DNA of 64,000 nt, taken from positions 1-64,000 of the IMG/VR virus record IMGVR_UViG_3300021142_000013; one strand, given 5' to 3'. Source of the stretch: a virus. The position numbers were made by a program, and so were the translations under genes. This document shows positions 45,001 to 59,568 of the stretch, piece by piece; the first letter of the stretch is position 1; the number at the start of each line of letters is the position of its first letter. Under the pieces are notes generated by a model. The model was not told where the DNA came from, did not search any database, and saw only the letters and a list, made by a program, of their open reading frames with translations.

Positions 45001-48000
45001 TCCTAATACAGGTTTGAGAAAGATGTTACCGTATGCTAAAACATTTAATACGTTAATGTCTACATTGTATAACTTAAATACTCCTAGTGAAAAACAAGAA
45101 AAACTTAAAGAACTTGCACAAAAAGACCCTAATTATGTACGTCTTTATAATCGTCTTGGTTTTAATAAACCTGCTGATCAAATAAATGCTGCAGAATTAA
45201 AACTTCAAACAATATTCTTCAGTGTTTTCTCTAAACAGAGACCTGAAACAATGACTACTATAAAAACTGAAAATGGTAAAGAAACTTCTACATTTTCTTC
45301 TAACACAGTAGCTAATACAGGTAGATTGTTAGAATCTTGGATGACTAATCTTGTAGAAGAAGGTTTGAAATCTGGTTTAGTTGAAGAAAGAGAAGGTGTT
45401 CCTACATTTAAAGCAAGTAAACTTAGAGATGCCTCATTAAAAACAAATGCAGATAAATCTAAATTCTTATCTTCTTTTGGGATTCAGTTTGATCCTTCTT
45501 TAATGGAAAAGCTTTCTGCTAAAGATCAAAAAGATTTATCTAAAGCAATTAATGGATTAAAAGAAGGTATTATAAAAAATCCTATAATTGTAGATGTTAA
45601 TAAAAAGACATTAGGCGAACAATCTAATCTAGAGCGTATTGCTGAAATTTTAACAAGAGCTAGTGGTGAAGGAGAAGAAAGTACTATATTTGGTCTTAAA
45701 AGCGAGCAGCGTCAAACATATTTAAATAATAATACAGTAAGTAACTGGTCTAACGATTTAAATAATGTTAAGACTAAAGAAGAATTATTTAACAAACTTC
45801 CTTTTTTAGAAAACGATCCTTATAGACAAGATTCTTGGTATTTAAGTAATTTGTTTAATGAAGATGGTACTCGCAAAGCTATTAAATTAGAAACTAAATA
45901 CACTCAAGGGATAAATGATCAATCAGATAATAGAAATCCCAGAAAGCCTATAGGAGTATTACCATATGCAGAACGTGTAGTACATCAGATAAATCAAGAA
46001 CTCAATAAAAATTATTATATACTTACTCCAGGAGATTCTAAAACAGAATGGATGTTAAGTATGGAACATATTATTCCATATTCTAATTTCAAAGGTGCTT
46101 TAGTAAACGATAAAGTATATAATTTATTTAATAAATATTATAAAACTGAAAAAGAAATTGCTACTGAAGCAGATGGTAAAATTAATGAATCTTATAAATC
46201 TTTAACATATCCTATCAACGGTGATTACAATACTGAAGAATTAGGTAAGGAAAAACTAACTAAATTCGTTACTGATAGAGTAGAAGCTACCAAAAAGACG
46301 TTAATGGATTTTGGCTTTATTCAGGATACAGGTAAAGGATTTAAGTTAAAAGGCTTTGATAAGAATTTTATGAAAGCAAACGATCTTAATAAAAATTTAT
46401 CTGCTCAAGAAGTACATGATTTTATTAAGTTTCGTGAAATTAATTATATGCTTAACAACGTTGAACAAACAAAACTATTATTTGGAGATATTGTTAGTAA
46501 AGCAAAAGATTGGGAAAAACGTGTAAAATCATTTCTATCTCCAAGACAATCTTCTTATTATGGAAATGATGCATACAATAATATTTTAAACGACGAATAT
46601 AATAAAGTAGGAGATACTCCTTTGAAACAAGGTGATCCTGGGTACTGGAATCATAAAGATAATATGAAGACAGCTACTATCAAAGATGTATATTCTACAG
46701 AAGATAGAGAGTATAACGGTAATCGTAAAAGTATCGTAAATGATGCTTCTTTACCTAAAGAAATTAGAGAAGCTTATGAGAAAAATAATGTTGCGGATGC
46801 TGGTGCATGGGTAAATGCGACTGCTTATAGAGAAATACTGACAAAAAGTCAGCAAACATTCACTAAAGAACAAGAACAACAGTATCAGTATGAATTAGCA
46901 AAAGATAGAATGCTGATAGATAAAGATAGTAAAGCAGGTATTTTACCTAAATCATTATCTTGGCAGTATTCTTCTGAAGAATTAAGAAAAGCAGATGAAG
47001 AACTTTTATCTAAAGGAGATCCTAAATCTGGAAAATTTGCAATTCTTAAAACAGTAGGTACTGGTGTAGATGCAGAAGGAAATACTTTCTTGCATAAAAA
47101 ATCTATTGCCCCACAATTCTATTCTATGTTTAGAAAAGAAGAAAATGGTAAAGTGTCTATTGGAAATGGTGCATTAGCTTATCTTAAAGATCTTCGTCAA
47201 GGAGTTTCTTATCACATTGCAGAAAGTGGTGTAAAAATAGGTGCTAAAGAAAAAGTAGATTTTTACAATAAAGAAGGACAACCTAATATAGAACAGTTTA
47301 ATCTTAATCAAATATCTTCAATTCCTTTTAGATATTATGGTATACAGGTAGAAACACAAGGCTCTAAAGAAAAACAAACTTTAGGTAGTCAGGTATCTAA
47401 GCTAGTTAAAATGAACTTTTTTAATGGTGGCTTACCTATTGATATTCAGGATAAATATAATTTAGATACATGGAATGGTTTATCTGAAAAAGAAAAATTA
47501 GATAATTCTCCTGTATATAAAGCAATTAAAAGATATTCTGATGTGTATAGTGCGATGCATGATCACGGATACAATATCTTTTTAAATAAATTAGGTATTG
47601 AGGATTTAGGTGATAGATTTGCTATACCTGATAAAAGTAAAGTACTTGCATTATTACAAAACGAACTTCTTCGTAGAGAAGCTCCTGAAAATATAAAAGA
47701 TGCAATTAAACTTAATGATCAGGGAGAATTTGTAACTGCTTTTGAAGCATTACCTAATTATAAACAAATTAAAGATATATTCTCTTCTCAAATAGAGAAG
47801 AATATTGCAAAGCCTAAAATGAATGGTGGTCCTAAAATCATGTTATCAAATCTTGGATTTGAAGTAGGTGATAGGAAAATAACTCAAAAAATGGTTAAAG
47901 GTAATCCTGTTTATGTATCTTCAGGATTAGAGTTTTATACTGCAGAATATGATAATGCAGGTAAAAGAACAAAAGTAAACCATATGGAAATAATGCTACC

Positions 48001-50722
48001 AATGTGGTTTAAAAACAAACTTAAAGGAAGTAAAAAATGGAAAAATTCATCTAATGAAGAAATCCTCAATCATTTAAACAATACAGAAGAAGGAAAGAAC
48101 ATTTTAAAAGGTATTGGTTTTCGTATTCCTACACAGGAAACAAATTCATCTGAAGCATTTATTGTAAAAGATTTCCTACCAGATATGCTAGGAGATACAA
48201 TTGTAGTACCAGAAGCACTTACTACAAAAGCAGGTATCGACTTTGACGTGGATAAAATGAATACATATCTTAAAAATGTATATGTAGATTCAAATGATAA
48301 CATTAAAGAAGTTCCTTTTTTTGGTATAGGACATGATGCATTAAATAAAGTAAAAGACTTTATACTAGGAAATATATTTGAAAAAAAAGTTACTGAGAGA
48401 TTAGATGCTATTGATAATTTAAGTGATGAAGATTTAGAATCAGATGGATTATATTCAGAATCTGATAGAATATATAAAGAATCATTAGAAAATGAATATT
48501 TCAATTCAATGAATAATTTAATTCTACATCCTGATAACTATGAAAGATTAATTGTTCCTAACTCCGCAGATAAATTTAAAAAAATAGCAAGTAATTTAAC
48601 AGAATTAGCTCCTGAAGAGTTTGGTGATAAAGGTGTTAAATCTCCTTTAGATAGTTCTTATATGGCTAATGGACGACATGGTGCGCTAGTTGTAGCACAG
48701 GGTGGTGTGGGTATCGCTGCTGTAGGACAAACAAACAATGCTTATAATCAATTACAACCAATATATCTAGATCCTGCAAAATTAGCAAATGTACCCAAAA
48801 AACAAAGAGATTGGTTAGGTACACTAGATATAAAACTTCCACACAATACAATTAATATTAACGGGATAGATCTTCCATCATTTTCTTCAAAGGAAGATAC
48901 GAAAGGGAATTTAATATCTAACAATATTTCTCAGGTAATAGATGGTACTGTTGACTATGTTAAAGACCCTTGGTTATCTAAATTGGTATACTCTAAATCT
49001 TTGCTTTCTCCAGCATTAACTATAATGAAACTAGGTACAGATCCAGAAACAACTTTTATGTTTTTGAATCAACCTGTTATTAGAGAGTATCTTAAATTCA
49101 TGGATAAAAATGGTGAAACATTTTTAAATAATGATAAATTAGTAAAATCTTTTTATAAAGTACAAGAGTTTAATTCAGGAAAAGCAAAATCTACTGAAAT
49201 TAATACTAAAGATCTTAAAAATAATATTTCTAAATACTATAAAGATAAAGGCAAGTTTACAGAAGCAGAAAACGCAGAACAAAAATTAATTTTACAAGAA
49301 TTTTTAAAATATAATACAATTTCTTCTAATTTATTTGATGTTTCTCGTGTTAGTGATAACGATACAAATCCAATTGTTACTGATGCTGATATTATAAAAG
49401 AAAATCTTAATCGAGAAAAAGCATTAAATAATAATGTTATATCTGGAATAAATAATCTTTTAAATAATACAGGACAAGATAATTTGTTTAAAAAACAAGT
49501 TGATGCTGTAAATGCTGTTTCGGAATCATTAAGTAATTTAGATTATGTAAAAGATATTAGAAATTCTGTAATAGGAGATATTGCAAATATAAGTAGACTT
49601 AATAAAGAAGACTATAATAAAGCTGCTCGTGATATAGATAGTTCTTTAATTACATATATGGTTCAAACAGAATCTGGTTTATCAGATAGAATTAAAGAAA
49701 TGATGATTGACAGAGAAACTTCTGTTGCAAATAAACTTTTAAATTTAAAGAAAAGTATTCCTAAAAACTCATCTCTTACCAGCAATAGTTTTTTAAATAA
49801 ACTATTTGCTAATATCAAAGGAGATACTAAAAATATAGGTCTTTTAACTAAAGTAAATGATATATTAACATCTGATACTTATACCAATGATCTACGTGAA
49901 TTAAGAGATAACGCATCAACCAATGAACTATATAAGGATTTAGTTAATTTATCTTTTCTACAATCAGGTGTATCTAAAAATGCATTATCGTATTCAGAAT
50001 ATCTTCCACACGAAGATTATAGTGAAATGATACAACCATTAATAGAAAACATCAGTCATTATGATTTAACAGCTTTTAAAGAAAATGGTGCATATTTTAG
50101 AAATGCTTGGAGTAATACCCGTGTAGTTCCTGAAACACATGAAAGTAGATTTGAACCAACTTTCTATAATCCTGAAGGAGGTGTAAAAGTAGGTCGTATG
50201 GAGTATGAACCTTGGCACAAAAGTCTTAGAGAGAAATATAATATAAAAGAGTTTTGGAATAGACCTTATAAAGTAGGTACTGGTTATGGTGTAGCAGATG
50301 CTTCATATATAACAATGAACTTAATAGAAAAAGATAATTTCGGAGAAGATGCTAATTTTGGTAAAGTACTTCTGAAAAGATTAGAAGATTCTCAAGGTAA
50401 TCCTATTATAGAAGGTAGTAATTTTACTAATTATGTATATATTCCAATAAATGCTTGGGGTAATGGTGTGAAAGCACAAGAATATTATTCTGAACCTAAA
50501 CAATCAGAATTTAAAAATGGATATCGTAAAGTAACAGAAATACCTGCAGAAGAATTATTAAATTCTTATAATAAAACAGAAGAACTTTTGGAAAATCCAA
50601 AAATTAATCGTACTTTTGATAAACCTGAAGAAAAATCGTTATCTAAAGATAATGAGCCAGAAGTTCCTTGGGATGAATGTACAAAACCTGCTTTTACTCC
50701 TAAAAAACCAAATAAAAAATAA
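39035..50722 (+). CDS. giant virion-packaged RNA polymerase polyprotein
   Basis: GFRIPTQ and GIDFDVDK (DxDxD at 48239-48253) as in crAss-like virion RNAPs; zincin TYHEAFH; hydrophobic N-terminal helices. Confidence 0.88.
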   Translation: MPEYAPIINPDNTRPILPNQSPLSDNISKEPVIGNSKELDAQYRKQQFNNIFSAPYKDKDAMKTYYTPEPETRKYPLFNPLVDNEEIYAQQQSPLTQTFHGITKGVADAGISFAQTLLFQPNAQWAEDAKSRLENFLPNYYSHWQQQHPVQAAIPFFGSGANFWFDKVFKGTADMLGMIGANYIQSALIGLATGGIGEIGTLSEGVGNIYLKASKFLSGVDKTAEFLKDMNLEGRELEAIQGFEKTYTQNVGREFLQNTGHVATNTIFSHMMASQGAKETYDTIHKDLHNQFVQENGYEPTGEDLTNIEKTATSASNVKYGTDFALFMVQALAMPHLLNSFKSAINPSFKGVEELTSKMSGKVSLEEGAKTLTDADKLKYESTKGNPFVNNYIKPFTKNMITLGGITVGTETSKEAVKKYFEDKYNKKIVGNLNDIIKSTVSGLENTFGSNEGLEGILSSMMTGGILGIVEHALEARNARKSGQMTPEERGNYAYNQMNNWSASGIFENNYAEAAATMKSVDDMNQAIKDNDPLAFKAAKDDHFFNFITSGIKNNLFDVRIAQLEAMKEIPLEELNKSLGLPKDTDSHKYIDSLIDKAHELKRAHDAMNKTLGNPFVYKNNPKTEEELKQNELYQTFEDYKSSLVKLSYNKREIDKDVKNIEQEAKKVDPRIDKDLLSKLTDPNKLRDLKEEYKDNIRDLEEQLRAKLFSGKDLINKKEQLKHLNTLVSKIEKTLDSKTFNGVEYHPLFNDLLNYEVNGRNLENQVPIDKVHIADLYDKGYDLNKLTKQVKIADFAYDFQFSKDGYDDFIARTDEARKALDIFRSEAEMKAYSPIKDADEIKDNKAKPEENRQWNLNKEHNPYTVSQDGDKWNVKNPFGEPIQSFDTKAEAEENRDYENKNLSDLKSITPTGKKADDGRIEVVDSKGNVQWLDPRMLENYQPTKTEAEIVAARKEFNKNLQVSVKKQTDKNKPTVLPENDDFAEQIVKDNEARPEAKKPSLSTLFLRGTYNEKDGSPIHKRREAFAAKIDNLPNHNNLRLILITPNTEEAFGLKGLSDAFLDNLGEVINKNDPEQGLVMRAMVEQDADGSLYYVNNKGERIGKAGEEIPNILEKGIFDTMPTTDLSWRSKPDEKRFHYQQGQTEEDALAYQKAWKAKRKQIFKWKGDKENLLGNTEVYEFLTSRGIAQLNDLTPTGKVDENGKEINKRARNAVGGTLIDESKIGNEGLIEISTTGKISHNGEDISVSKGVPLFHNGSTLEYLSNRKLIDKEISNIYNILKYSAKEGKFNQDVIDYLQGVINFTTTETGKSISRNQVYLKDGFLYFGNNENGVPFTEKGIKQNSKLIEEYLGKMYNGVNNRYLKENRPFTEISINDKGELESFTWKSYQHYLLSDKYISDDAEHNLHNKSRGGVDSIPLTTPIRKVVEDVPNDSNFIYKSFIIQNQQEGAEFLKIEKKKEQPEPIKETKPKDTKETPIKFDTTTKYKFKSSTGEDIAYTAGIDENGKAQINWVEEDQLGLRRAVAKILTNKGKDLNDPESQYEAVNQLEKEVTDYLNERLDKKRATTVKDEKKIDEKAKEIKKEKKPNSKKKPNPGFGEEQYRIVDNFDYVKADLNKEEKWMKENLSTVPFNRLENIIRTTNGGTAFGVFKDAAIHIWENAEVGTTYHEAFHSVWDMFTTLPERETLLKEFNSREGSFIDRETGETVDYKNADEHQILEKMAEEFRNHVITNNKPQGNALTRFFRDLVNMIKKLISPESKTIDQLFKRINSGYYNTGTSVSETFDRADSKYRVPGISASKSYHLVKDITSRIISRLFATDEGLNTLVNFENPKDTPSKVFEDIYNERATYYTDNDTEGTIPDQFENGLINEDQFKSYQNFWANVDKGWDTVKADIVDYLKTLGIDTKFSGEYVSLANEESYIENNSENADSADYDKSDRQEQYLKDEFKLDAKRSAGVPIKLLLSTLFEASFQKEAQPINGLMPVSDVIDPNTGLRKMLPYAKTFNTLMSTLYNLNTPSEKQEKLKELAQKDPNYVRLYNRLGFNKPADQINAAELKLQTIFFSVFSKQRPETMTTIKTENGKETSTFSSNTVANTGRLLESWMTNLVEEGLKSGLVEEREGVPTFKASKLRDASLKTNADKSKFLSSFGIQFDPSLMEKLSAKDQKDLSKAINGLKEGIIKNPIIVDVNKKTLGEQSNLERIAEILTRASGEGEESTIFGLKSEQRQTYLNNNTVSNWSNDLNNVKTKEELFNKLPFLENDPYRQDSWYLSNLFNEDGTRKAIKLETKYTQGINDQSDNRNPRKPIGVLPYAERVVHQINQELNKNYYILTPGDSKTEWMLSMEHIIPYSNFKGALVNDKVYNLFNKYYKTEKEIATEADGKINESYKSLTYPINGDYNTEELGKEKLTKFVTDRVEATKKTLMDFGFIQDTGKGFKLKGFDKNFMKANDLNKNLSAQEVHDFIKFREINYMLNNVEQTKLLFGDIVSKAKDWEKRVKSFLSPRQSSYYGNDAYNNILNDEYNKVGDTPLKQGDPGYWNHKDNMKTATIKDVYSTEDREYNGNRKSIVNDASLPKEIREAYEKNNVADAGAWVNATAYREILTKSQQTFTKEQEQQYQYELAKDRMLIDKDSKAGILPKSLSWQYSSEELRKADEELLSKGDPKSGKFAILKTVGTGVDAEGNTFLHKKSIAPQFYSMFRKEENGKVSIGNGALAYLKDLRQGVSYHIAESGVKIGAKEKVDFYNKEGQPNIEQFNLNQISSIPFRYYGIQVETQGSKEKQTLGSQVSKLVKMNFFNGGLPIDIQDKYNLDTWNGLSEKEKLDNSPVYKAIKRYSDVYSAMHDHGYNIFLNKLGIEDLGDRFAIPDKSKVLALLQNELLRREAPENIKDAIKLNDQGEFVTAFEALPNYKQIKDIFSSQIEKNIAKPKMNGGPKIMLSNLGFEVGDRKITQKMVKGNPVYVSSGLEFYTAEYDNAGKRTKVNHMEIMLPMWFKNKLKGSKKWKNSSNEEILNHLNNTEEGKNILKGIGFRIPTQETNSSEAFIVKDFLPDMLGDTIVVPEALTTKAGIDFDVDKMNTYLKNVYVDSNDNIKEVPFFGIGHDALNKVKDFILGNIFEKKVTERLDAIDNLSDEDLESDGLYSESDRIYKESLENEYFNSMNNLILHPDNYERLIVPNSADKFKKIASNLTELAPEEFGDKGVKSPLDSSYMANGRHGALVVAQGGVGIAAVGQTNNAYNQLQPIYLDPAKLANVPKKQRDWLGTLDIKLPHNTININGIDLPSFSSKEDTKGNLISNNISQVIDGTVDYVKDPWLSKLVYSKSLLSPALTIMKLGTDPETTFMFLNQPVIREYLKFMDKNGETFLNNDKLVKSFYKVQEFNSGKAKSTEINTKDLKNNISKYYKDKGKFTEAENAEQKLILQEFLKYNTISSNLFDVSRVSDNDTNPIVTDADIIKENLNREKALNNNVISGINNLLNNTGQDNLFKKQVDAVNAVSESLSNLDYVKDIRNSVIGDIANISRLNKEDYNKAARDIDSSLITYMVQTESGLSDRIKEMMIDRETSVANKLLNLKKSIPKNSSLTSNSFLNKLFANIKGDTKNIGLLTKVNDILTSDTYTNDLRELRDNASTNELYKDLVNLSFLQSGVSKNALSYSEYLPHEDYSEMIQPLIENISHYDLTAFKENGAYFRNAWSNTRVVPETHESRFEPTFYNPEGGVKVGRMEYEPWHKSLREKYNIKEFWNRPYKVGTGYGVADASYITMNLIEKDNFGEDANFGKVLLKRLEDSQGNPIIEGSNFTNYVYIPINAWGNGVKAQEYYSEPKQSEFKNGYRKVTEIPAEELLNSYNKTEELLENPKINRTFDKPEEKSLSKDNEPEVPWDECTKPAFTPKKPNKK

Positions 50723-51542
50723 TGAAACTAGAAGCTGTAATTATATGCGTAAACTACTCAGATTTTCTGGCGCATACTTTACCACAAAATAAACAGTTTT
50801 TTGACAAGTTAGTAGTTGTCACAGATACGAAAGACACAAAAACAAAACAATTATGTGATTATTACAACGTGTTTTGCATTCAAACAGATGTTTTTTATAA
50901 TGGAGGTAGTCCTTTTAATAAAGGAATGGGTATAAATGAAGGATTGAAGTGTTTAGATAAAGATGGGTGGGTATTACATATAGATGCAGATATTTATCTA
51001 CCACCTTTAACAAGAGAAATCCTTGAAAAAATAAATTTAAATCCTATTTTTTGTATGGGATAGATCGTATGATGTGTCCTACATATGAAGAATGGATTAA
51101 ATTTAAAGAAAACCCTACTCCTACACATACAGCACATGTTTTTGTACATCCTACAATATTTCCTATGGGTGTTAGAATATGTGATTATACTACTAATCAA
51201 GGTTATCATCCTATAGGATATTTTCAGTTATGGAATCCAAAAGGTTCTGGAATATTCAATTATCCAATAGAACATGGTCGTGCAGATAGGACAGATGTGC
51301 TTTTTTCTAAAAATTGGACAAGAGAAAATAGAGTATTAATTCCAGAACTAATATGCATCCATTTAGAATCAGAAGATTTGAATCTAAAAGAAATGGGTAA
51401 GAACTGGTCTGGTAGAAAAACAACTATTTTTTCTAAAAATGCCGAACCAATTATTATAAAAACCAAACCTATACGAGGATATAAATCAGATATGTTTAGA
51501 CATCTATGTATTCTAATAGGTCGAATATTTGATAAAAAATGA
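50722..51542 (+). CDS. GT-A fold (GT2-like) glycosyltransferase, split by a -1 frameshift
   Basis: VIICVNYSDFL...FNKGMGINEG...WVLHIDAD (DxD); continues as LYGIDR...IGYFQLW if one T is added to the T6 run at 51047-51052. Confidence 0.8.
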
Positions 51543-52111
51543 TTTTAATTTCTGCACATAAAGATACTGTTTTTAATAATCCTAAAATGGATTACAAAGA
51601 CGGTAAACATATTGGTTTACTAGATAATCAAATAGGTATACTTGTAGCGAATCTTTCATTATATAGTAACGATATTATATATGAATTAGAAAAATCAGGT
51701 AAAATACAATATTATTTTAATGAAGGAGAAGAATTTGGATTATTAACAAATCCACCTAAATTAACTAAAAAAGATATTGTAATTGTTGTCGACGTATGTT
51801 CAGATAAGAAATATAAAGGATACGATGTCGCTATTGAAAATATCTGGAATATCGAAGATATTGACGGAATAATTGAAAATCTTAAATGGGAGGGCTATAA
51901 GGTATTAAAATCTGACTATACAGGAGATCTTTCAGATGAAGATGAAGCTTTCTCTTGGGTAGAACAAAAAGTGCCTGTAATGAGCTTTATAATACCAATA
52001 GAGGCTATTAATGATGGATGGCATAGAATACAGCAAGATAATACAATAACCTATCAAAAGGTTAAAAAAGCAGCTAATTGTTTAACTAGATTAATTTGTT
52101 ATACTATATAA
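51539..52111 (+). CDS. minimal M20/M28-type Zn metallohydrolase (peptidase/deacylase)
   Basis: SAHKD, LDN, GEEFG, VDV and C-terminal WH ligands in canonical order. Confidence 0.72.
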   Translation: MILISAHKDTVFNNPKMDYKDGKHIGLLDNQIGILVANLSLYSNDIIYELEKSGKIQYYFNEGEEFGLLTNPPKLTKKDIVIVVDVCSDKKYKGYDVAIENIWNIEDIDGIIENLKWEGYKVLKSDYTGDLSDEDEAFSWVEQKVPVMSFIIPIEAINDGWHRIQQDNTITYQKVKKAANCLTRLICYTI

Positions 52112-52112
52112 T

Positions 52113-54452
52113 ATGAGCATTAAAGATAAAAAAATTCTAATATTTGACACAGGTTCTTTCTTTGAAACAGCTTTAAAATTAGCAGATTATTTTCAGCAAG
52201 TATACTATTATTGTGCTTGGGAATCTGGATTTCCTGGTATGGATAAAGCAGTTTTAGGTAGTGAATGGAAAGATGGTAAACAATTAGATACTTTTGATGG
52301 TAAAAATCTTAAACGCGTTTTAAGTTTTTATGATTATATAGATGAAGTAGATGTTATTCTATTTACCGATGTATATTGGGGTGATTTGCAAGAATATCTT
52401 CGTAACCTAGGATATAATGTTTTTGGTTGTGGATATGGTTCTGAATTAGAACTTGATAGATGGGATACAGCAAAAACATTTAAAGAAAATGGTATGGATG
52501 TTGCTTCTATGAAAAAAATAATTGGAATAGATGCACTTAAAGAAGAACTACAAAAAGTAGAAGATAAATATATAAAAATATCACGATATCGTAAATGTAC
52601 AGAAACTTTTCATCATGAAACTTATGAATTATCTTTACCTATAATTCACAAAATGCAAAGTGAATTAGGTCCTTTATCTAAAATAGCAGAATTCATAATA
52701 TGTGATCCTATTGAAGCAATAGTAGAAGAAGGAATTGATTCTTATACGGTTAATGGTGAATATCCGAATGTGGTATTAGTAGGTGCAGAAATAAAAGATG
52801 CTGCTTATGCAGGAGCCATTATGCAATACAAGGATTTATCTAAAGGAATATTAAAAACAAATAAACAAATTTCTCCATTATTTAAAGAGTGTCAATATAA
52901 AGGATTCTTTTCGACAGAAGTACGTTCTACTAAAGATGATAAGAATTATCTTATAGACATGACTTGTTTTTCAGAAGATACTGAAGTGCTTACTAACAAC
53001 GGTTGGAAACTGTTTAAAGATTGTGTAACTGAAGATAAATTTGCTACTTTAAATATAGAAACTAAAGAGATAGAATATCAATATGCTTCTAACTATATAG
53101 AAAAGGACTATATAGGTAAAATGATTCATTTATCGAATAAAAGAAATACATTTGATTCTTTAGTTACTCCTGATCACGATATACTTAGATATGATGAAAA
53201 GAAAAGAAAACTTTTTAAACAAAAAGCAAAAGACTTAAATACTAAAGGATATATTCCTCGTACAGGTGTATGGAAAGGTAAAAATACTGAATTCTTTGAA
53301 TTACCTTCTTATCATAAAGAATGGGATTGGAATAGTAATCTTCATGGGGGATATAAGATATGTACTAAAATAAAACACGAAGATGTTAAGCAGATAAAGA
53401 TGATTGATTGGGCTTCTTTTATGGGATGGTATTTATCTGAAGGGAGTAACAATGGTTATATAGTAAGTATAACACAATCTAAAAGACTAATCGAATTGGA
53501 AGAATGTTTAAAAAAGCTTCCTTTTAATTATTCTAAAACTTCTTCAGGATTTCAAATTTCTTCTGTGCAATTATGCGAATATTTAAATAAATATGGATTA
53601 TGTAATGAAAAATACATTCCCGATTATATTTTAAATGCTAATAAAGAAATTATTGAAAGTTTTTTATATTCTTATTGGTTAGGTGATGGATCTTCATCTA
53701 GTGATAGACAACGATATTTTACTACATCTAAAAAAATAGTAGACGGATTACAAGAATGTATTTTGAAAGTAGGTTCTGTTGCAAATATTAGAACAGGAAA
53801 AGGTGGTAAAGGTTCTGTAATGTCTGTTAATGGTGGAAAAGAATATATAAGAAATCATGATTTATATATTATAGAACGCTATCGTGAGAGAACAGATTAT
53901 TGGTTTGAAACAACTTCTCGCAAAGATCGTTATATACACGAAATTGATTATAACGGAAAGGTATATTGTGTTACTGTACCAAATGGCACTTTGTATGTAA
54001 GAAGAAATGGAAAACCAACATGGTCTGGAAATTGTAGAGAACCTCAACCACCGTCACATTTATATTGTGAAATGTTTGCGAATCTTGGAGAAATTATATA
54101 TGAAACAGCTACAGGAAATCTAATAGATGTTATACCAAACGGTAAGTATGGATTATATGCAACAATAACTTCAGATTGGTACGATGAAAGCCATCAGGCT
54201 ATATATTTTCCTCCAGAGATAAGAGATAATGTAAAGCTTAATTATCCTATTAAAATAGATGGTAATTATTACTGTCTAAATATTAATAATTTTCCAGAAG
54301 TAGGTGCTTTAGTATGTTGTGGAGATTCTTTTGAAGAATGTAAAAAGAAAATGGAAGAAATGGCTCCTAAGATAAAAGGTTATGGTATTAGTATTAAAAT
54401 GGATAGAATAGATAAAGCAATTGAAGAATTTAGTAAAATGCAAAAATCATGA
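52113..54452 (+). CDS. PurD/GARS-like ATP-grasp amide ligase (intein-containing)
   Basis: VFG...ELELDR, YKGFFSTEV...YLIDMT|CREP (compare GARS VLEFNxRxGDP); extein is 423 aa, GARS-sized. Confidence 0.7.
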   Translation: MSIKDKKILIFDTGSFFETALKLADYFQQVYYYCAWESGFPGMDKAVLGSEWKDGKQLDTFDGKNLKRVLSFYDYIDEVDVILFTDVYWGDLQEYLRNLGYNVFGCGYGSELELDRWDTAKTFKENGMDVASMKKIIGIDALKEELQKVEDKYIKISRYRKCTETFHHETYELSLPIIHKMQSELGPLSKIAEFIICDPIEAIVEEGIDSYTVNGEYPNVVLVGAEIKDAAYAGAIMQYKDLSKGILKTNKQISPLFKECQYKGFFSTEVRSTKDDKNYLIDMTCFSEDTEVLTNNGWKLFKDCVTEDKFATLNIETKEIEYQYASNYIEKDYIGKMIHLSNKRNTFDSLVTPDHDILRYDEKKRKLFKQKAKDLNTKGYIPRTGVWKGKNTEFFELPSYHKEWDWNSNLHGGYKICTKIKHEDVKQIKMIDWASFMGWYLSEGSNNGYIVSITQSKRLIELEECLKKLPFNYSKTSSGFQISSVQLCEYLNKYGLCNEKYIPDYILNANKEIIESFLYSYWLGDGSSSSDRQRYFTTSKKIVDGLQECILKVGSVANIRTGKGGKGSVMSVNGGKEYIRNHDLYIIERYRERTDYWFETTSRKDRYIHEIDYNGKVYCVTVPNGTLYVRRNGKPTWSGNCREPQPPSHLYCEMFANLGEIIYETATGNLIDVIPNGKYGLYATITSDWYDESHQAIYFPPEIRDNVKLNYPIKIDGNYYCLNINNFPEVGALVCCGDSFEECKKKMEEMAPKIKGYGISIKMDRIDKAIEEFSKMQKS
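52965..54032 (+). mobile_element. intein (356 aa) with LAGLIDADG endonuclease
   Basis: CFSEDTEVLTNNGWK, VTPDH, FMGWYLSEG, SYWLGDG, VYCVTVPNG...WSGN|C. Confidence 0.9.
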
Positions 54453-54766
54453 ACATTCACGATTCACGAAAAATCTTTTTGAATAAAAGATATATTATCC
54501 CAAACGATAAAAATATTTATTATTTTGCAAGTGGTGGTAATTTATTTATATTTAAAGAAGATGGCGGTCAATTATCTACAAGATATACTATATATCAGGA
54601 AGGTAGTGATTGTTTTATAAAAAGTCCTGCTTTTTATGGTAATCAACCATTATTAGTTGATAAAAATAAAAAAAGTTTAATCAAATTAACTCCTAAAAAT
54701 CCAAAAGATGAACACGATTTCATATATTTACAATTATATGCAATCTTTGGAATGTCTTTTTCATAA
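54449..54766 (+). CDS. hypothetical protein
   Basis: 105-aa ORF, 4-bp overlap with the ATP-grasp gene. Confidence 0.6.
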   Translation: MNIHDSRKIFLNKRYIIPNDKNIYYFASGGNLFIFKEDGGQLSTRYTIYQEGSDCFIKSPAFYGNQPLLVDKNKKSLIKLTPKNPKDEHDFIYLQLYAIFGMSFS

Positions 54767-54780
54767 TTTAAAATAATCAA

Positions 54781-57700
54781 ATGGCTTGTAGAGTAACATA
54801 TCTATCTAATGGTAATATATCTAAAGTTTTTGCACCAGATGGCAAAGAAAGCGATCTTTATAAAAAAATATTAGATAAAGTGCTTGAATTAGATAAAACT
54901 GAAAGATTAGAATTACAAGACAAATATACTCCTTGGGTAGGTAAACATATACGTGGATTAGATGATAGGAATATTGCTTTGGCTGTTTATAAAGGAACAG
55001 ATTCTAAAGTATTCAAAGAAAAGTATCCTGATATAGAAAAAGATGCAAAAGGTGATCCTAAAATATCTCCTGAAGAGTTATTTAAAACTCAAATGAAAGA
55101 ATTGCCTAAATTATCTCACGATTATGCTGTAGAGATAATGAATAGAATGGGTATTGATGCTAAAATGTTTGATAAAAAAGAATTAGCAGAACTCCCTAAA
55201 GGAGTAACAGCTTGGGCAGATGTTGGTGGAAAATTTATTCAATATGTACAAGGACATGAAACAGATATACCCCATGAAATTTCTCACTTTGGTGTTGCAA
55301 TTACCCGCAGTAAAAATCCTAAACTATACAAGGAATTAGAAAATAAAATAGGCTCTAGTAAAGAATATGAAGAAGTAAGAAGACTATATAGTAGTAGTGA
55401 AGCTTATAAAAATGAAGATGGAACGCTAAATATCAAAAAACTCAAAGAAGAAGCTATAACTCAACTAGTAGAAAAGCATCTCGTACGGAAACTTGAAACA
55501 AACGAGAACCCTGAGACTTTAGTTGCTGTACAAAATTGGTGGAACAAAGTAAAAGATTGGTTTAAAACTCTATTACAAAAAGCAGGATATAAAGACCCGT
55601 TTGAAAAAGTTGCAGAAAATATTAAATCTGGAGATATAGGAACTACCAAAGATGTTAGTGAAAAACTATATCCTGAAGGAGACGAAGCTAAATACTTTAA
55701 ATTAGAAGATGATACTAAGAAAATTACAGATAAACTTGAAAAAGAACATCTTGATACTGTAAAAACGAAAGAAGGATTTTTAAGAAATAACGAAAAAGTA
55801 AAAGACTTATTTGAAGTTAAATCAAAAGAAGATAAGACTAAAAAAGAAGAAGTTATCGAGAAGAAATCTGAACAAGGACATAATGATATGTCTGATGTAA
55901 TGAGTAGACTTTTTGATGAAAATAATCATTTACATGAAAAACCTACGGATAGTAATTATGCTTCAGAATTAGATCCTAAAAATAGGATATATGATAATTT
56001 CTTTAATAATATTAAAGAACGTATTGAAAACGAGCATTTTCCTGAAGGAACTAAATTTTATCATGATTTAAATATTTATAATCCACAATTAGATAGAGCA
56101 GGGAGTTTAGACTTTTTAGCTGTTACACCTGAAGGAAAAGCTAGTGTATGGATGTTTAAATTTATTAATGGCGATGGCACTAAAGATATTTCGCTATCTA
56201 AAAGAGAAAGTTTCCAAAAAGAAATTGGTAATTATAAAAGAACACTTAAAGATAATTATGGTATAAATGAATTTGACCAAACACGAGTTATTCCTGTGTT
56301 CATGAGTTTTGATGTTAAAAATGGCGAATATTCATTGAAATCTGCTAAAATAGGTAATTCTAAAATAGAAGTTGAAAAGAATGAAAAATTATTGCCTATT
56401 TCAACACTTGATGAAAGAACAGGTGATTCTTTTGTAGATCATCTTATTAAGAAATTAAGTGATTTATATGATGTAAAAAGAGAATTTCTAAAGGATAAAG
56501 AAAAAGTTAACGAAATCAATAATATTTATAAAGTAATACGAGAATTACAAACAAAGCATCAATTTAATTATTTATTTAGTCAAATTGATTCTACTGTAGC
56601 AAATACTCATAAAATAGTAGATAAATATAAAGATAACTTTAAAAAAGAGAATCTTGCAAATATTTCTAATGAAGAATGGGAAAAACAAGCAATAGAACTC
56701 AATAAAACGCAAAATGAACTTTCTATATACAAGGAGTTAGATAATATCTTTGAAGATACATATCCTAATCCTACAGATAAGCAAAAAGAAGAATTAGCTA
56801 AAATTAGAGAATATTCTAATAAAGCACGTAATGAACTTTTTCAGCTTAATAAAGTAATACGTGAATTTGCTAATGAAAATGCTAAGAGATTTGGGATTGA
56901 AGATTTACTCACTCCTGAAAAAAAACCAGGATGGATTGCATCTATGTTTAATACTCAATCAGAATTCAATCTATCAGGAGTATTAACTCTTAATAGAATG
57001 ATGGATACTATGCAAAATTATAGAGATAATGAAACACGTACACATGTAAATGAATTGTTATCTATAGGTAAAGATGTTAAAAACTGGTTAAAAGGTAAAA
57101 ACGCTAAAGATCTTATTAAAGCTGTACGTAAAGAAGATAAAAATGAATTGATAGATCAATATGATAGAAAGTTTTATCAGGATTTATATTCTAACATTGA
57201 AAAAAAGAATGTTAAATGGATAAAAGAGAATGTTGATAAAAAAGCTTTTGCGCAATGGGCTGAAAAATATAAAAAAGAACGAATGGAAGCTATTCGTAAT
57301 GAAGTTTATATTGGTACAGAAGAAGAAAAGAACGAACAAAAGCGAAACGACATTGAGAAACTAAATTCTATAACAAATTTAGCTTCAGATTCAGCATGGC
57401 TGAATTATAGAAATATTAAAAACTTTCCGTTAGAGAAATGGCACTCTACAGAATATTCTAATTTAATAAAAGAAGAGAATAAACCCGTATTAAAACTTTA
57501 TAATTTTATTAAAGATTTAAATCAACAAGCTGCAGAAGTAGGTTATATTGAACATGAAAGGAAACGTAATTTCTTACCTTTCATTAAAAAATCCCTAGCA
57601 GAAAAAGTTGTAATGGGTGGTTCTTATAATTGGGTACAATCCGTATTAGATTCCGTAACTATACAAGAAAGTGATACTGACTATGGTGTTATTAATAAAT

Positions 57701-59568
57701 TAACTGGTGACGTTATAGATACTATTCCTAAGTATTTTACAAGCGAGACAGATAACGTGGAATATGCCTCATCAGATTTATTAAAAAATATAGGACTTTA
57801 CGCAGTCAAATTATTAGATTATAAATATAAACAAAGTATCGAAAATCAATTAAAGCTAATGCTTTATATTGAAAAGAATAAAGGTTCTTTACAAACTAAC
57901 TTCTTAGGTAGAGTTGTTAAAGATGCTGAACCATCGCCTTTAAATGAAAATAATTCCAAAATATTGGAAGATTATATCAAGAATCAAATATATGGACAAT
58001 CTTATGTAAAAACTGATTTTTCAGATGCTGCTAGTAAAAAGATAGGTAAAGTATATAACGAAACTTCTGAGAAAATAAATAAAAAACTTGGATTTGAATT
58101 ATTTCCTAAAATAGGAGGTGAGGATAGGCTTTCACTTATTAAAGGATTAGATACTTTAATGCGTACTCAGCAATTAAAAGTGTTAGGATTCAACTTAGGT
58201 ACTTCTGCTTATCGTTTCTTAGGTACAAATATTCAAGCATTAATCAGTACTGGCACATACGGTACTGCTGCAGATTATATGAGAAATGAGCTAAAACATA
58301 CTCAAATGAAATTCTTAAAAAATGACTTTGATGTACATATAGCTGCTTTAAAAGAATTTCTACCTGTAGATGGTCAAATAATGCACGAATTAGGTAATTT
58401 ATCTTTTAGTAAACTCACACAAGAATCAATAGGTGATTTTATGATGAGTTGGATACGTACTGCGCATGATTTTATCCAATACGTTAATTTTGGTGTATTT
58501 ATGGATAATGCAATCGTAATAGATGGTAAAATTCATAACGCAAGAGAATATTATAGAAATACTCCTGAATATAAGGCGAGATATGAATCATACCAGGATT
58601 TAAGACAAAAAGAAAAAGACTTTGAAGACAACGTTAAAAAGTTAATTGATGAACACGGATTGGAAAAAAGAATGTCTGTTAAAGATAGTCGTTTACAGAT
58701 TGATGGAGTAGATATGAATGGCGAAAGTTTTGCTGCTTATAAACAACTAATTAGACAAATAGGTCGGAGATTAAGTGGTAATATAAGCAGAGAAGATGAA
58801 TCGCGTATTAGAATGATCGTATTAGGTCGTCAAATTATGACTTTCCATAATTGGGTTCCTGGAATGATGAAGACTCGTTTTAAAGGATTATCTTATAATG
58901 ATGGTACAGATACTCATGAATGGGGTAGAATGCGCATGGTTGGTAAACTTTTATTTCAAAACGGATTAAATTCGGTTTCTCGCCTTATTTCTATGACAAA
59001 AGGTACAGATAAAGGTATTCAATTATTAGATAAACTCTGGGAACAAAAACAAAAAGAATATAAGGAACGTACAGGTAAAGACTTAAAAATGGATAAAGAA
59101 CGTTTTTTCGATCTTGTTCGCGCGAATATTAAAACAGAAGCAAAGGAACTATTGGCTTTAACTTCTCTTATAGGAATGTTCATCGCAGCAAAAGCTTTAT
59201 CTAAAGAAGAAGAGGACAAATATACTAAAGGTTATTGGAATTATGCTTTACGTATATTAGATAGAACAAAAGAAGAAATTAATTTTTTTTATAACCCAAT
59301 AGCTTTACAAGGAATGCTCAACGGTTCTATTTTTCCAGCATTAGGTGTATTAACTGATTTTACTCGTTTCGCAGAGAATTTCCTTCGAGAGGGTTTAGGA
59401 TATGTAATTCAAGATAAAAAAATAATAGATTCTGCACATCCTGCTAAATATTTCTTTAAGAGTTTTCCTGTTTCTCGTGAAATGTTAAAGTATTTTGCAA
59501 TTTTTGAACCAGATGTAGCAAAATCAATGGGTGTTGAGTTTAATGCTCAACCATTCATACAAAGATAA
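54781..59568 (+). CDS. giant ejection/virion polyvalent protein
   Basis: 1595 aa; PHEISH...KEEA zincin-like motif, GSLDFL...WMFK degenerate PD-(D/E)xK, helical C-terminal region. Confidence 0.7.
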   Translation: MACRVTYLSNGNISKVFAPDGKESDLYKKILDKVLELDKTERLELQDKYTPWVGKHIRGLDDRNIALAVYKGTDSKVFKEKYPDIEKDAKGDPKISPEELFKTQMKELPKLSHDYAVEIMNRMGIDAKMFDKKELAELPKGVTAWADVGGKFIQYVQGHETDIPHEISHFGVAITRSKNPKLYKELENKIGSSKEYEEVRRLYSSSEAYKNEDGTLNIKKLKEEAITQLVEKHLVRKLETNENPETLVAVQNWWNKVKDWFKTLLQKAGYKDPFEKVAENIKSGDIGTTKDVSEKLYPEGDEAKYFKLEDDTKKITDKLEKEHLDTVKTKEGFLRNNEKVKDLFEVKSKEDKTKKEEVIEKKSEQGHNDMSDVMSRLFDENNHLHEKPTDSNYASELDPKNRIYDNFFNNIKERIENEHFPEGTKFYHDLNIYNPQLDRAGSLDFLAVTPEGKASVWMFKFINGDGTKDISLSKRESFQKEIGNYKRTLKDNYGINEFDQTRVIPVFMSFDVKNGEYSLKSAKIGNSKIEVEKNEKLLPISTLDERTGDSFVDHLIKKLSDLYDVKREFLKDKEKVNEINNIYKVIRELQTKHQFNYLFSQIDSTVANTHKIVDKYKDNFKKENLANISNEEWEKQAIELNKTQNELSIYKELDNIFEDTYPNPTDKQKEELAKIREYSNKARNELFQLNKVIREFANENAKRFGIEDLLTPEKKPGWIASMFNTQSEFNLSGVLTLNRMMDTMQNYRDNETRTHVNELLSIGKDVKNWLKGKNAKDLIKAVRKEDKNELIDQYDRKFYQDLYSNIEKKNVKWIKENVDKKAFAQWAEKYKKERMEAIRNEVYIGTEEEKNEQKRNDIEKLNSITNLASDSAWLNYRNIKNFPLEKWHSTEYSNLIKEENKPVLKLYNFIKDLNQQAAEVGYIEHERKRNFLPFIKKSLAEKVVMGGSYNWVQSVLDSVTIQESDTDYGVINKLTGDVIDTIPKYFTSETDNVEYASSDLLKNIGLYAVKLLDYKYKQSIENQLKLMLYIEKNKGSLQTNFLGRVVKDAEPSPLNENNSKILEDYIKNQIYGQSYVKTDFSDAASKKIGKVYNETSEKINKKLGFELFPKIGGEDRLSLIKGLDTLMRTQQLKVLGFNLGTSAYRFLGTNIQALISTGTYGTAADYMRNELKHTQMKFLKNDFDVHIAALKEFLPVDGQIMHELGNLSFSKLTQESIGDFMMSWIRTAHDFIQYVNFGVFMDNAIVIDGKIHNAREYYRNTPEYKARYESYQDLRQKEKDFEDNVKKLIDEHGLEKRMSVKDSRLQIDGVDMNGESFAAYKQLIRQIGRRLSGNISREDESRIRMIVLGRQIMTFHNWVPGMMKTRFKGLSYNDGTDTHEWGRMRMVGKLLFQNGLNSVSRLISMTKGTDKGIQLLDKLWEQKQKEYKERTGKDLKMDKERFFDLVRANIKTEAKELLALTSLIGMFIAAKALSKEEEDKYTKGYWNYALRILDRTKEEINFFYNPIALQGMLNGSIFPALGVLTDFTRFAENFLREGLGYVIQDKKIIDSAHPAKYFFKSFPVSREMLKYFAIFEPDVAKSMGVEFNAQPFIQR

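What the first reader, a model, noticed from the sequence alone, without database searches (positions are those of the whole stretch)
50722..54766. Candidate new system: glycosyltransferase + M20/M28 hydrolase + PurD-like ATP-grasp ligase cassette among ejection genes
Seen: three enzyme genes plus a small ORF, overlapping or abutting (TAATG, ATGA, 1-bp gap), coupled to the virion RNAP gene and so probably expressed late. No other purine genes are present in the window. Established: GT-A enzymes transfer sugars, the M20/M28 clan includes deacylases and peptidases, and GARS ligates an amino acid to an amino-sugar amine. The sequence transfer -> deacylate -> aminoacylate is the logic of mycothiol/bacillithiol synthesis, although those pathways use other folds. 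Inference: the cassette builds an aminoacylated glycan on virion proteins (poly-Thr tracts), on the host surface (superinfection exclusion) or on packaged DNA. Alternatively the ligase and peptidase act as a writer/eraser pair for a peptide tag.
Basis: partly seen in the sequence, partly recalled or inferred. Interest (0 to 1): 0.88.

Follow-up and report, generated by a model that had tools for sequence, protein, structure and literature searches.

The report
Phage PurD-like ligase with peptidase partner
The three enzyme genes are real but are not one pathway: only the purine-enzyme-like ligase (split by an intein) and the tiny zinc peptidase recur together elsewhere, the sugar-transferase gene is an unrelated, frameshifted passenger, and what the ligase joins is still unknown.

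Summary
Observation partly confirmed. The genes and their junctions (TAATG, ATGA, 1-bp gap, ATGA) are there. However, the GT-A gene is split by a 1-nt frameshift in a T6 run (51047-51052), where relatives have one 250-280 aa protein. The 779-aa "ligase" ORF is a 423-aa PurD-fold ATP-grasp enzyme interrupted by a 356-aa LAGLIDADG intein (52965-54032) at the catalytic D-x-T|C-R motif.

The trio is not a conserved cassette. None of 42 ligase loci from IMG/VR has the GT, and 8 GT loci lie among DNA-metabolism genes with neither partner.

The 190-aa M28-like hydrolase does recur beside the ligase: 14 of about 26 informative loci, at least 4 separate ligase clades, both gene orders. Three of these loci are non-prophage sites in Chitinophagaceae chromosomes that keep a canonical purD elsewhere. 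In 17 of the 42 ligase loci the neighbour is instead a small HExxE zincin-like protein, never both. Some ligases are fused to HAD or acylphosphatase domains.

The ligase is not PurD: TIGR00877 gives no hit, and the GGRE(H/S)A, NTGGMG and GDPE motifs are lost.

Best reading: a ligase-hydrolase pair with an unknown amide product, expressed late. The scan has found this family and this pair before on other DNA (28 or more notes).

The parts
39035..50722 (+). Giant 3895-aa upstream ORF (putative ejected protein or virion RNAP). Its stop overlaps the GT start (TAATG).
   Evidence: Homologues flank the ligase in L003 and L004. No PDB sequence hit, so RNAP identity is not verified here.
50722..51063 (+). 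N-terminal fragment (113 aa) of a GT-A/GT2-like glycosyltransferase. It carries the DxD motif (HIDADIY).
   Evidence: Pfam GT2 and Glyco_tranf_2_4, E about 5e-4, below cut-off. It aligns to residues 1-108 of single-chain relatives.
51047..51052 (+). T6 homopolymer where the GT reading frame changes by -1. One extra T would give ...NPIFLYGIDRMMCP..., as in relatives.
51054..51542 (+). C-terminal fragment of the same GT gene (listed ORF 51051-51542; frame open from 51027).
   Evidence: 60 relatives of 190-282 aa cover it, and most also contain the N-terminal half.
51539..52111 (+). 190-aa minimal M28/M42/M20-clan metallohydrolase. It has no signal peptide; the metal-ligand His7 and Asp9 sit at the very N-terminus.
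   Evidence: Pfam M28 E 0.002 (18.3 bits against a cut-off of 21.3). H7, D9, D29, E64-E65, D85 and H162 are conserved across 22 relatives. Atlas structural TM 0.7-0.8 to M28/M42/M20 clusters.
52113..52964 (+). N-extein (aa 1-284) of the PurD-fold ATP-grasp ligase.
52965..54032 (+). 356-aa intein with a LAGLIDADG homing endonuclease. It has Cys1, a TPDH block B, two LAGLIDADG motifs, and ends ...WSGN with a +1 Cys. It is inserted in the catalytic D-x-T|C-R motif.
   Evidence: Pfam LAGLIDADG_3 30.3 bits (over cut-off) and Intein_splicing 29.8 bits (below cut-off). The insertion is a clean gap against 9 intein-less homologues. Homologous same-site inteins occur in L002, L018 and L038. Coordinates.
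54033..54452 (+). C-extein (aa 641-779) of the ligase, beginning CREPQPPS.
54449..54766 (+). 105-aa ORF of unknown function, ATGA-coupled to the ligase. It may be a distant positional counterpart of the 126-129 aa gene that follows the ligase in L003 and L004.
   Evidence: No Pfam, PHROG or PADLOC hit. Pairwise BLASTP E about 0.01 to the L003 and L004 proteins.
54781..59568 (+). Giant 1595-aa downstream ORF. Its homologues follow the ligase block in L003 and L004.

Best explanation
The stretch is a variable accessory island between two giant late genes of a roughly 102-kb phage with crAss-like layout. It holds two unrelated things.

(1) A two-gene ligase-hydrolase module. The ligase belongs to a large, uncharacterised family derived from PurD. 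It keeps the four-domain PurD fold and the ATP-grasp catalytic core, so it should activate a carboxylate as an acyl-phosphate and join it to an amine. It has lost PurD's substrate motifs and is therefore retargeted. Here it can only work after protein splicing removes a LAGLIDADG intein that sits in the Mg/acyl-phosphate motif. Its partner is a cytoplasmic 190-aa two-metal M28-like hydrolase. I infer that this hydrolase cleaves the same kind of amide bond, either trimming the ligase's product or removing a competing substrate.

(2) A GT-A glycosyltransferase gene that is a separate mobile accessory gene. In this assembly it is broken by a 1-nt frameshift.

Shown here:
- gene structure, fold assignments and the intein;
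- non-membership in PurD;
- recurrent ligase-hydrolase adjacency;
- absence of the GT from every other ligase locus examined.

Inferred:
- late co-expression;
- that hydrolase and ligase share a substrate;
- the nature of that substrate. My split is about 40% a small peptide-like or aminoacyl amide (possibly made for packaging, or by a packaged enzyme), about 30% a terminus or side chain of virion cargo proteins, and the rest other.
For: Gene structure
- The intein is delimited by alignment to intein-less homologues, and all family-invariant residues are present in the exteins.

Ligase fold and family
- AF2 of a 62%-identical intein-less homologue has pLDDT 95. The top 14 listed Foldseek hits are all GAR synthetases (TM up to 0.74, 11-15% identity).
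- The family profile hits PurD in the PDB at E 2.7e-8.
- The family has about 1,000 representatives at E <= 1e-30.

Not PurD
- TIGR00877 gives no hit in this genome, while 14 control genomes and 4 Chitinophagaceae genomes pass.
- hhalign against canonical PurD gives only 30% probability. ExKD and (D/E)-x-x-C-R are retained; GGRE(S/H)A, NTGGMG and GDPE are not.

Pairing with the M28-like hydrolase
- The two genes are adjacent in the window and in L004, L053, L058, L060, L062, L072-L077, L079 and L080.
- These ligases fall in at least 4 separate ligase clades, and the M28 tree is discordant with the ligase tree.
- L058, L060 and L062 are chromosomal sites flanked by T9SS cargo, PorP, PriA and histidine-kinase genes.

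Interchangeable hydrolase partners
- The HExxE protein 'c2' is next to the ligase in 17 of 42 loci and never occurs together with M28. The closest relative L003 has c2 where the window and L004 have M28.
- c2 resembles minimal zincins only weakly.
- Some ligases carry N-terminal HAD or acylphosphatase domains.

GT is unrelated.
Against: - No substrate, product or interaction has been shown.
- About half of M28-like genes occur without the ligase, for example after portal-DUF6712 in L051/L052, or next to enolase or FeoB in bacteria. Only 1 of 42 ligase loci found through the ligase has M28, so the partnership is facultative.
- The c2 zincin assignment rests on Z < 5 and TM about 0.5.
- Asn of the ATP-grasp E-x-N motif is Thr or Cys in this family, so the chemistry could differ in detail.
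- The intein lacks the usual penultimate His (it ends G-N), and splicing is assumed, not shown.
- The GT frameshift could be an assembly error. An intact GT next to the pair could then still cooperate with it in this one phage.
- The structure model is of a homologue, not of the window's own spliced protein.
Confidence: 0.55

Rival explanations
1. One reading: GT transfers a sugar, the M28-like enzyme deacylates it, and the PurD-like ligase aminoacylates the freed amine. The result would be an aminoacylated glycan on virion proteins, DNA or the host surface.
For: All three genes are translationally coupled in this window. PurD's natural acceptor is an amino-sugar phosphate. HAD-phosphatase fusions of the ligase would fit a phospho-sugar substrate.
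Against: The GT is frameshifted here. The GT is absent from all 42 other ligase loci and from all M28 loci. GT relatives sit among DNA-metabolism genes without either partner. The sister genomes L003 and L004 have the ligase block without a GT. The ligase has lost PurD's phosphoribosylamine-binding motifs.
Confidence: 0.05
2. The ligase is an ordinary auxiliary metabolic purD that boosts purine synthesis during infection.
For: PurD is the best structural and profile match. Relatives in GenBank phage records are annotated as purine enzymes. The literature treats viral purD as an auxiliary metabolic gene (PMC12647753).
Against: TIGR00877 gives no hit at E <= 1e-3. No Pfam GARS domain is detected. 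Identity to PurD is only 11-15%. The substrate motifs are lost. Bacteria that carry the pair also have a canonical purD elsewhere. The gene lies in late or virion-gene blocks, not with nucleotide-metabolism genes.
Confidence: 0.03
3. Protein-directed writer/eraser system. The ligase adds amino acids to termini or side chains of packaged or ejected virion proteins, as RimK or tubulin-tyrosine ligase do. The M28-like or zincin-like partner trims those additions.
For: The ligase is embedded between giant internal or ejected-protein genes in many unrelated podophage lineages. The partner c2 is fused to an Erv1/ALR thiol oxidase in the L026-type phages. M28-like genes also follow portal-DUF6712 in other phages.
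Against: The PurD/PurK/PurT/biotin-carboxylase branch has no known protein-modifying member (textbook knowledge). The pair also sits in bacterial chromosomes with no virion genes. HAD and acylphosphatase fusions point to small phospho-metabolites.
Confidence: 0.3
4. The arrangement has no joint function. The gap between the two giant genes is simply a hot spot where mobile accessory genes (GT, M28-like, ligase, homing elements) accumulate independently.
For: The island content differs between the three closest genomes: the window has GT, M28, ligase with intein, and a small ORF; L003 has c2, ligase, a small ORF and a GIY-YIG endonuclease; L004 has M28, ligase and a small ORF. The M28 and ligase trees are discordant.
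Against: M28-ligase adjacency recurs in at least 4 ligase clades, in both gene orders, and in bacterial chromosomes. That is far more than chance placement would give, and the mutual exclusion of c2 and M28 in the same slot suggests replacement of an equivalent function.
Confidence: 0.12

Closest known systems
PurD / glycinamide ribonucleotide synthetase (EC 6.3.4.13; TIGR00877; PDB 2YW2, 1VKZ, 2QK4, 1GSO)
   Same: It has the full four-domain fold (TM up to 0.74) and profile-level homology (E 2.7e-8). The ExKD motif, the (D/E)-x-x-C-R motif and the GARS_C-like C-domain are retained.
   Different: Identity is 11-15%. It fails the TIGR00877 and Pfam GARS models. It lacks the GGRE(H/S)A, NTGGMG and GDPE motifs. 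Asn of E-x-N is Thr or Cys. It is encoded in late or virion operons or as a two-gene island, and it coexists with a canonical purD in bacteria.
Ligase + hydrolase pairs built on ATP-grasp enzymes: VanA/VanX, glutathionylspermidine synthetase/amidase, LysX/LysK (ATP-grasp + M20), tubulin-tyrosine ligase/carboxypeptidase
   Same: The logic is shared: an ATP-grasp amide ligase is genetically coupled to a small metallohydrolase able to cleave amide bonds. The hydrolase type is interchangeable between lineages. This comparison rests on established knowledge of those systems, not on a test here.
   Different: The ligase comes from the PurD branch, not the Ddl, RimK or TTL branches. The hydrolase is a 190-aa minimal M28-like enzyme. 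No substrate is known, and no homology to any of these systems was detected.
M28 / M42 / M20 (MH clan) co-catalytic metallopeptidases
   Same: The metal-ligand pattern H-x-D ... D ... EE ... D ... H is conserved. The predicted fold matches M28/M42/M20 clusters (TM 0.7-0.8), and some relatives pass Pfam M28.
   Different: It has only 190 aa, with no PA, dimerisation or lid domains and no signal peptide. The window protein itself scores below Pfam's cut-off, and there is no PDB sequence hit even with a profile.
phiEco32-type phage amidoligase cassette (reported by an earlier agent about 18.7 kb beyond this window in the same genome)
   Same: It is another amide-bond-forming enzyme set of unknown product carried by the same phage (not tested here).
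   Different: The enzyme families differ (COOH-NH2 ligase, GATase, Amidoligase_2), the locus is different, and the cassette is not adjacent to virion genes.

Membership tests
PurD / GAR synthetase (TIGR00877 equivalog) | Scores over the curated cut-off (288 bits) of TIGR00877 | tested here: not met
   There is no match at E <= 0.001 anywhere in the 102-kb genome. All 14 control genomes and 4 Chitinophagaceae genomes pass at 421-507 bits, and their ligase paralogues next to M28 are not even weak hits.
PurD / GAR synthetase (TIGR00877 equivalog) | Four-domain (N, B, A, C) PurD architecture | tested here: met
   The AF2 model of P0001 (62% identical, intein-less) has pLDDT 95. Foldseek gives 2yw2 at E 4e-21 and TM 0.74 over 452 alignment columns. 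The model is of a homologue, not of the window's spliced protein.
PurD / GAR synthetase (TIGR00877 equivalog) | Substrate-binding motifs GGRE(H/S)A (N-domain), D-x-G-x-NTGGMG (A-loop) and R-x-GDPE | tested here: not met
   The family consensus has D-x-G-x-F-F-E, no NTGGMG, and C-R-x-x-x-P-P. hhalign against four canonical PurDs aligns only positions 103-340, with 30% probability. The role of these motifs in PurD comes from established knowledge.
ATP-grasp superfamily | Mg/ATP-binding acidic pair and catalytic Arg in the (E/D)-x-N-x-R motif, plus conserved Lys/Glu in the central domain | tested here: inconclusive
   E226, K228, E269, D282 and R642 are invariant, but the Asn position is Thr or Cys across the family.
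Intein (HINT domain + LAGLIDADG homing endonuclease) | Cys/Ser1, block B TxxH, C-terminal Asn, +1 Cys/Ser/Thr, and a clean in-frame insertion relative to intein-less homologues | tested here: met
   C285, TPDH and ...SGN|C641 are present. There is a 356-aa gap in 9 homologues. LAGLIDADG_3 scores 30.3 bits (over cut-off) and Intein_splicing 29.8 bits (under the 35.8 cut-off). The penultimate His is absent (G639). Splicing itself was not tested.
Peptidase family M28 (MH clan) | Pfam PF04389 over the gathering score | tested here: not met
   The window protein scores 18.3 bits against a cut-off of 21.3. Five of 22 relatives match at E <= 0.01, the best at 4.3e-6.
Peptidase family M28 (MH clan) | Co-catalytic metal ligands (His, Asp, bridging Asp, Glu-Glu, Asp/Glu, His) and the MH-clan fold | tested here: met
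   H7, D9, D29, E64-E65, D85 and H162 are invariant or nearly so in 22 sequences. Atlas structure search gives TM 0.68-0.80 to M28/M42/M20 clusters. The assignment of residues to metal sites is by analogy.
GT-A / GT2 glycosyltransferase | GT2 Rossmann-like domain with DxD, encoded as one intact ORF | tested here: not met
   The domain and DxD (DAD) are present at sub-threshold Pfam scores (20.6 against 23.3), and 7 of 10 alignment rows (8 relatives plus the two window fragments) match GT2 models. But the ORF is broken at the T6 run, whereas relatives are continuous.
   None of 42 ligase loci, 8 GT loci or about 30 M28 loci has all three. The GT never lies within 6-8 kb of either partner.
Known anti-phage defence systems (PADLOC-DB) | Any component matches a PADLOC model | tested here: not met
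   There are no hits at E <= 0.01 for M28, ligase, GT, c2, the small ORF or the bacterial copies.

The most novel reading that the evidence does not exclude
The PurD-derived ligase and its interchangeable hydrolase partner (mini-M28, HExxE zincin-like, or fused HAD/acylphosphatase) could form an undescribed, widespread enzyme system, shared by podophage late operons and by some Bacteroidota chromosomes. It would install and edit an amide-linked product tied to virion assembly or ejection. That product could be a modification of packaged cargo proteins, a small cationic or peptide-like molecule co-packaged with DNA, or the output of an enzyme that is itself ejected to act first in the next host.
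Probability: 0.3. Interest if true: 0.75.

Novelty: new variant of a known kind. Interest (0 to 1): 0.48.

Why it matters
Annotation pipelines label these genes purD, purK or "auxiliary purine genes". The evidence here indicates a retargeted ligase family of about 1,000 or more sequence clusters that lies in phage virion-gene blocks and pairs with varied hydrolases. If its product were identified, it could reveal a new late-stage step in podophage biology, such as cargo modification or a packaged enzyme or metabolite. It would also correct a systematic mis-annotation in viromics.

For this particular finding the practical message is narrower:
- The proposed three-enzyme glycan pathway is not supported.
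- The GT is a broken passenger gene.
- The ligase needs intein splicing to work.
- The ligase-peptidase pair has already been seen repeatedly by this scan on other DNA.

Tried and rejected
Searches that gave nothing
- A DNA-level search of the phage collection gave no match.
- A single-sequence M28 scan of IMG/VR found nothing; the family alignment was needed.
- The alignments A2 and A6 were too diverse for pattern scans.
- The M28 family profile gave no PDB hit, and the giant ORF gave no PDB sequence hit.
- Foldseek against the PDB gave nothing significant for c2. The wide VIA search gave only Z <= 4.7, with zincins dominating the top rows; this is a lead only.
- c2 has no copy in this genome, although an empty answer there proves little.
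- PADLOC gave no hits.
- Literature searches found no description of this ligase family or of an intein in it. Iyer et al. 2009 is not held in the library.

Tools unavailable

Ideas considered and dropped
- Programmed -1 slippage on A-TTT-TTT-G as the reason for the GT split. P-site re-pairing is possible, but there is no canonical heptamer and no evidence.
- A mycothiol/bacillithiol analogy. No fold or gene-association support.
- A defence-island reading of the bacterial pair. No PADLOC hit, and the neighbours are housekeeping or T9SS genes.

Full report
1. WHAT IS IN THE SEQUENCE

The window is about 30% GC. It carries a large terminase (7841-10954), a portal (10954-13527), a major head protein (15223-16800), a lytic-transglycosylase protein (34528-36549) and a 3895-aa giant ORF (39035-50722). 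It is the first 64 kb of a 102,074-bp IMG/VR virus record estimated 88% complete.

Downstream of the giant ORF, on the same strand, are these ORFs:
- 50722-51063 (113 aa)
- 51051-51542 (163 aa)
- 51539-52111 (190 aa)
- 52113-54452 (779 aa)
- 54449-54766 (105 aa)
- a 1595-aa ORF at 54781-59568

No terminator-like site lies in 50300-55200, and sigma-70-like promoter matches are at the level of shuffled sequence. Co-transcription with the giant genes is therefore plausible but only inferred. The giant ORF has no PDB sequence match. Its RNAP identity rests only on a DFDVD motif that I saw in the translation.

2. THE GLYCOSYLTRANSFERASE IS ONE GENE, BROKEN

- The 113-aa ORF gives sub-threshold GT2 hits and has the DxD motif. 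The 163-aa ORF has no Pfam hit.
- A search with the second ORF found 60 proteins. Nearly all are 220-282 aa, and several carry Pfam GT2.
- The alignment shows that these proteins cover both window ORFs continuously. The window changes frame by -1 exactly at ...NLNPIF|LYGIDRMMCP..., inside the T6 run 51047-51052.
- Both halves are otherwise well conserved (about 60-70% identity). This points to a recent lesion or a homopolymer error in the assembly.

3. THE M28-LIKE HYDROLASE

- Pfam M28 scores E 0.002, below the cut-off.
- 93 relatives of 135-215 aa were found.
- In 22 of them H7, D9, D29, E64-E65, D85 and H162 are invariant or nearly so. This is the ligand pattern of co-catalytic MH-clan enzymes.
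- Five of 22 members hit Pfam M28, the best at 4e-6.
- The ESM Atlas places the protein with M28/M42/M20 clusters, with structural TM 0.68-0.80.
- A profile search gave no PDB hit.
- The ligand His and Asp lie at residues 7 and 9, so there is no signal peptide and the enzyme is cytoplasmic.

4. THE LIGASE AND ITS INTEIN

- Pfam finds LAGLIDADG_3 and Intein_splicing in residues 300-629 of the 779-aa ORF.
- 83 homologues of about 415-440 aa lack this segment. Alignment gives a clean insertion between ...YLIDMT and CREPQPPS.
- The exact limits are aa 285-640, nt 52965-54032, which leaves a 423-aa extein.
- The intein has Cys1, a TPDH block B, two LAGLIDADG motifs and ends ...WSGN, followed by Cys. 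Homologous inteins (44-52% identity) sit at the same site in L002, L018 and L038.
- In the 1.84-billion-protein library the family has 1,786 representatives at E <= 1e-3 and 998 at E <= 1e-30.
- About 15 of the best 150 are 758-793 aa with two matched stretches. These break at profile position about 275 (this site) or about 206-224 (a second site), and the inserts begin TE(V/I)LT..GW.
- An AF2 model of the intein-less homologue P0001 (62% identical) has pLDDT 95. Its best PDB matches are all GAR synthetases (2yw2, E 4e-21, TM 0.74, 15% identity), followed by biotin carboxylases, PurT and PurK.
- The family profile hits PurD of Aquifex at E 2.7e-8, including the C-domain.

5. IT IS NOT PurD

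- Neither the window protein nor P0001 hits any Pfam GARS domain or PHROG family.
- TIGR00877 finds nothing in the phage genome, while all 14 control genomes pass.
- Four Chitinophagaceae genomes that carry the M28-like gene, three of them (L058, L060, L062) with the ligase beside it, each have a canonical purD elsewhere (421-507 bits). The ligase paralogues are not even weak hits.
- Profile-profile comparison with those canonical PurDs gives 30% probability. It aligns E-x-K-D and (D/E)-x-x-C-R but not GGRE(S/H)A, NTGGMG or GDPE.
- In the E-x-N motif the Asn is Thr or Cys in this family.

6. IS THE TRIO A SYSTEM? NO, BUT TWO OF THE THREE ARE LINKED

Loci fetched:
- 42 ligase loci from IMG/VR and GenBank phages
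- 8 GT loci
- 7 M28 loci from IMG/VR
- 7 M28 loci from GTDB genomes
- 17 M28 loci from metagenomes

GT:
- No ligase or M28 locus contains the GT.
- No GT locus contains the ligase or M28.
- In other phages the GT lies among PD-(D/E)XK nuclease, PhoH, SNase and helicase genes.

M28:
- It is adjacent to the ligase in the window and in L004, L053, L058, L060, L062, L072, L073, L074, L075, L076, L077, L079 and L080.
- It is without the ligase in about 12 loci that have enough flank.
- Both gene orders occur.

Chromosomal copies:
- L058, L060 and L062 are Chitinophagaceae MAG contigs of up to 1.17 Mb.
- There the pair is flanked by T9SS cargo proteins, PorP/SprF, PriA or a histidine kinase. These sites are not prophages.
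- The syntenic L063 has M28 but no ligase.

Trees:
- On a ligase tree the M28-linked ligases fall in at least 4 separate clades.
- On an M28 tree the window's enzyme groups with the bacterial clade, not with the M28 of its sister phage L004.
- The association has therefore been assembled or replaced repeatedly.

7. OTHER PARTNERS OF THE LIGASE

- In 17 of the 42 ligase loci the neighbouring gene is a roughly 125-aa protein ('c2'). Its invariant residues are H51-E52-x-x-E55, D73, H102 and E109. It never occurs together with M28.
- The closest relative L003 has c2 exactly where the window and L004 have M28.
- The AF2 model of c2 has pLDDT 93. Foldseek against the PDB finds nothing significant.
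- The wide VIA search lists almost only minimal zincins at the top: selecase, PprI, YbeY, CapP, jannalysin, SPRTN and Wss1. All score Z <= 4.7.
- The Atlas gives TM 0.5 to M78/SprT clusters. This is a lead, not a finding.
- In the L026-type phages c2 is fused to an Erv1/ALR thiol-oxidase domain.
- Some ligases carry N-terminal HAD phosphatase domains (P0280 and P0368 over Pfam cut-offs) or an acylphosphatase domain (P0351, 52.5 bits).
- The recurring theme is a ligase plus a hydrolase of variable type.

8. THE SMALL ORF AND THE ISLAND

- The 105-aa ORF has no family hit.
- It shows only weak pairwise similarity (E about 0.01) to the 126-129-aa gene at the same position in L003 and L004.
- Island content differs among the three closest genomes. 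L003 additionally has a GIY-YIG homing endonuclease. The gap between the two giant genes is thus a variable accessory region rich in selfish elements.

9. INTERPRETATION

Shown:
- gene models
- the frameshift
- the intein
- the fold assignments
- non-membership in PurD
- non-conservation of the trio
- recurrent M28-ligase linkage

Inferred:
- The ligase makes an amide through an acyl-phosphate intermediate.
- The hydrolase acts on the same chemistry.

Substrate class is open.
- Evidence for a small molecule:
  - the PurD-branch ancestry
  - the HAD and acylphosphatase fusions
  - the chromosomal copies
- Evidence for virion proteins, or for an enzyme or product that is packaged:
  - the constant placement beside ejected-protein genes
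  - the c2-Erv1 fusion
  - M28 genes after portal-DUF6712 in other phages

10. RELATION TO EARLIER NOTES OF THIS SCAN

The scan has flagged this PurD-like ligase in phage ejection cassettes at least 28 times on other genomes. It has also flagged the ligase with a mini-peptidase or HExxE partner several times, including another crAss-like phage with an intein. I re-tested the following here:
- PurD non-membership
- the intein limits
- the M28 adjacency
- the c2 adjacency

The notes on DPANN and Paceibacteria (polyamine neighbours) were not tested. No description of the family was found in the paper library.

Noticed in passing
window 7841-10954 (+): The large terminase ORF is 1037 aa. Its N-terminal third matches intein-bearing PHROG families (primase, helicase loader), and it contains a LAGLIDADG-like FLGQWLGDGGS with weak similarity to the ligase intein's endonuclease. 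This is probably a second intein in this genome.
   Followed up: partly
L003:9629-10624 (+): The closest relative carries a GIY-YIG/NUMOD homing endonuclease gene in the same island, between the small post-ligase gene and the downstream giant gene. This gap appears to be a hot spot for selfish elements.
   Followed up: partly
Proteins P0244, P0297, P0307, P0372, P0285 and P0382: Members of the ligase family carry intein-like insertions at a second site (profile position about 206-224), and possibly a third (about 149), in addition to the window's site (about 275).
   Followed up: partly
Proteins P0280, P0368, P0363, P0245, P0269 (HAD-like) and P0351 (acylphosphatase): The PurD-like ligase is fused at its N-terminus to phosphohydrolase domains in several lineages. 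P0280, P0368 and P0351 pass Pfam cut-offs. P0363 is weak. P0245 and P0269 are judged by eye only.
   Followed up: partly
L026:9392-10075, L027:9386-10081, L029:9393-10076, L038:10484-11179: The HExxE partner protein of the ligase is fused to an Erv1/ALR sulfhydryl-oxidase domain in one phage group. In L028 this fusion gene is split into two ORFs.
   Followed up: partly
L058, L060, L062 (Chitinophagaceae MAG contigs); L063 is syntenic without the ligase: The M28-like and PurD-like ligase pair sits as a two-gene unit in bacterial chromosomes, between T9SS cargo/PorP genes and PriA or next to a histidine kinase. No phage genes are nearby, and a canonical purD lies elsewhere in each genome.
   Followed up: yes
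L051:3954-6561, L052:934-3650, L067:5954-8561: In another phage group the mini-M28 gene directly follows portal and a DUF6712 gene, the position usually held by head-maturation functions. No ligase is nearby.
   Followed up: no
L047:4395-5987 and L055:4021-5604: A phage-encoded Cpn60/GroEL-like chaperonin is the immediate neighbour of the GT in one contig and of the M28-like gene in another.
   Followed up: no
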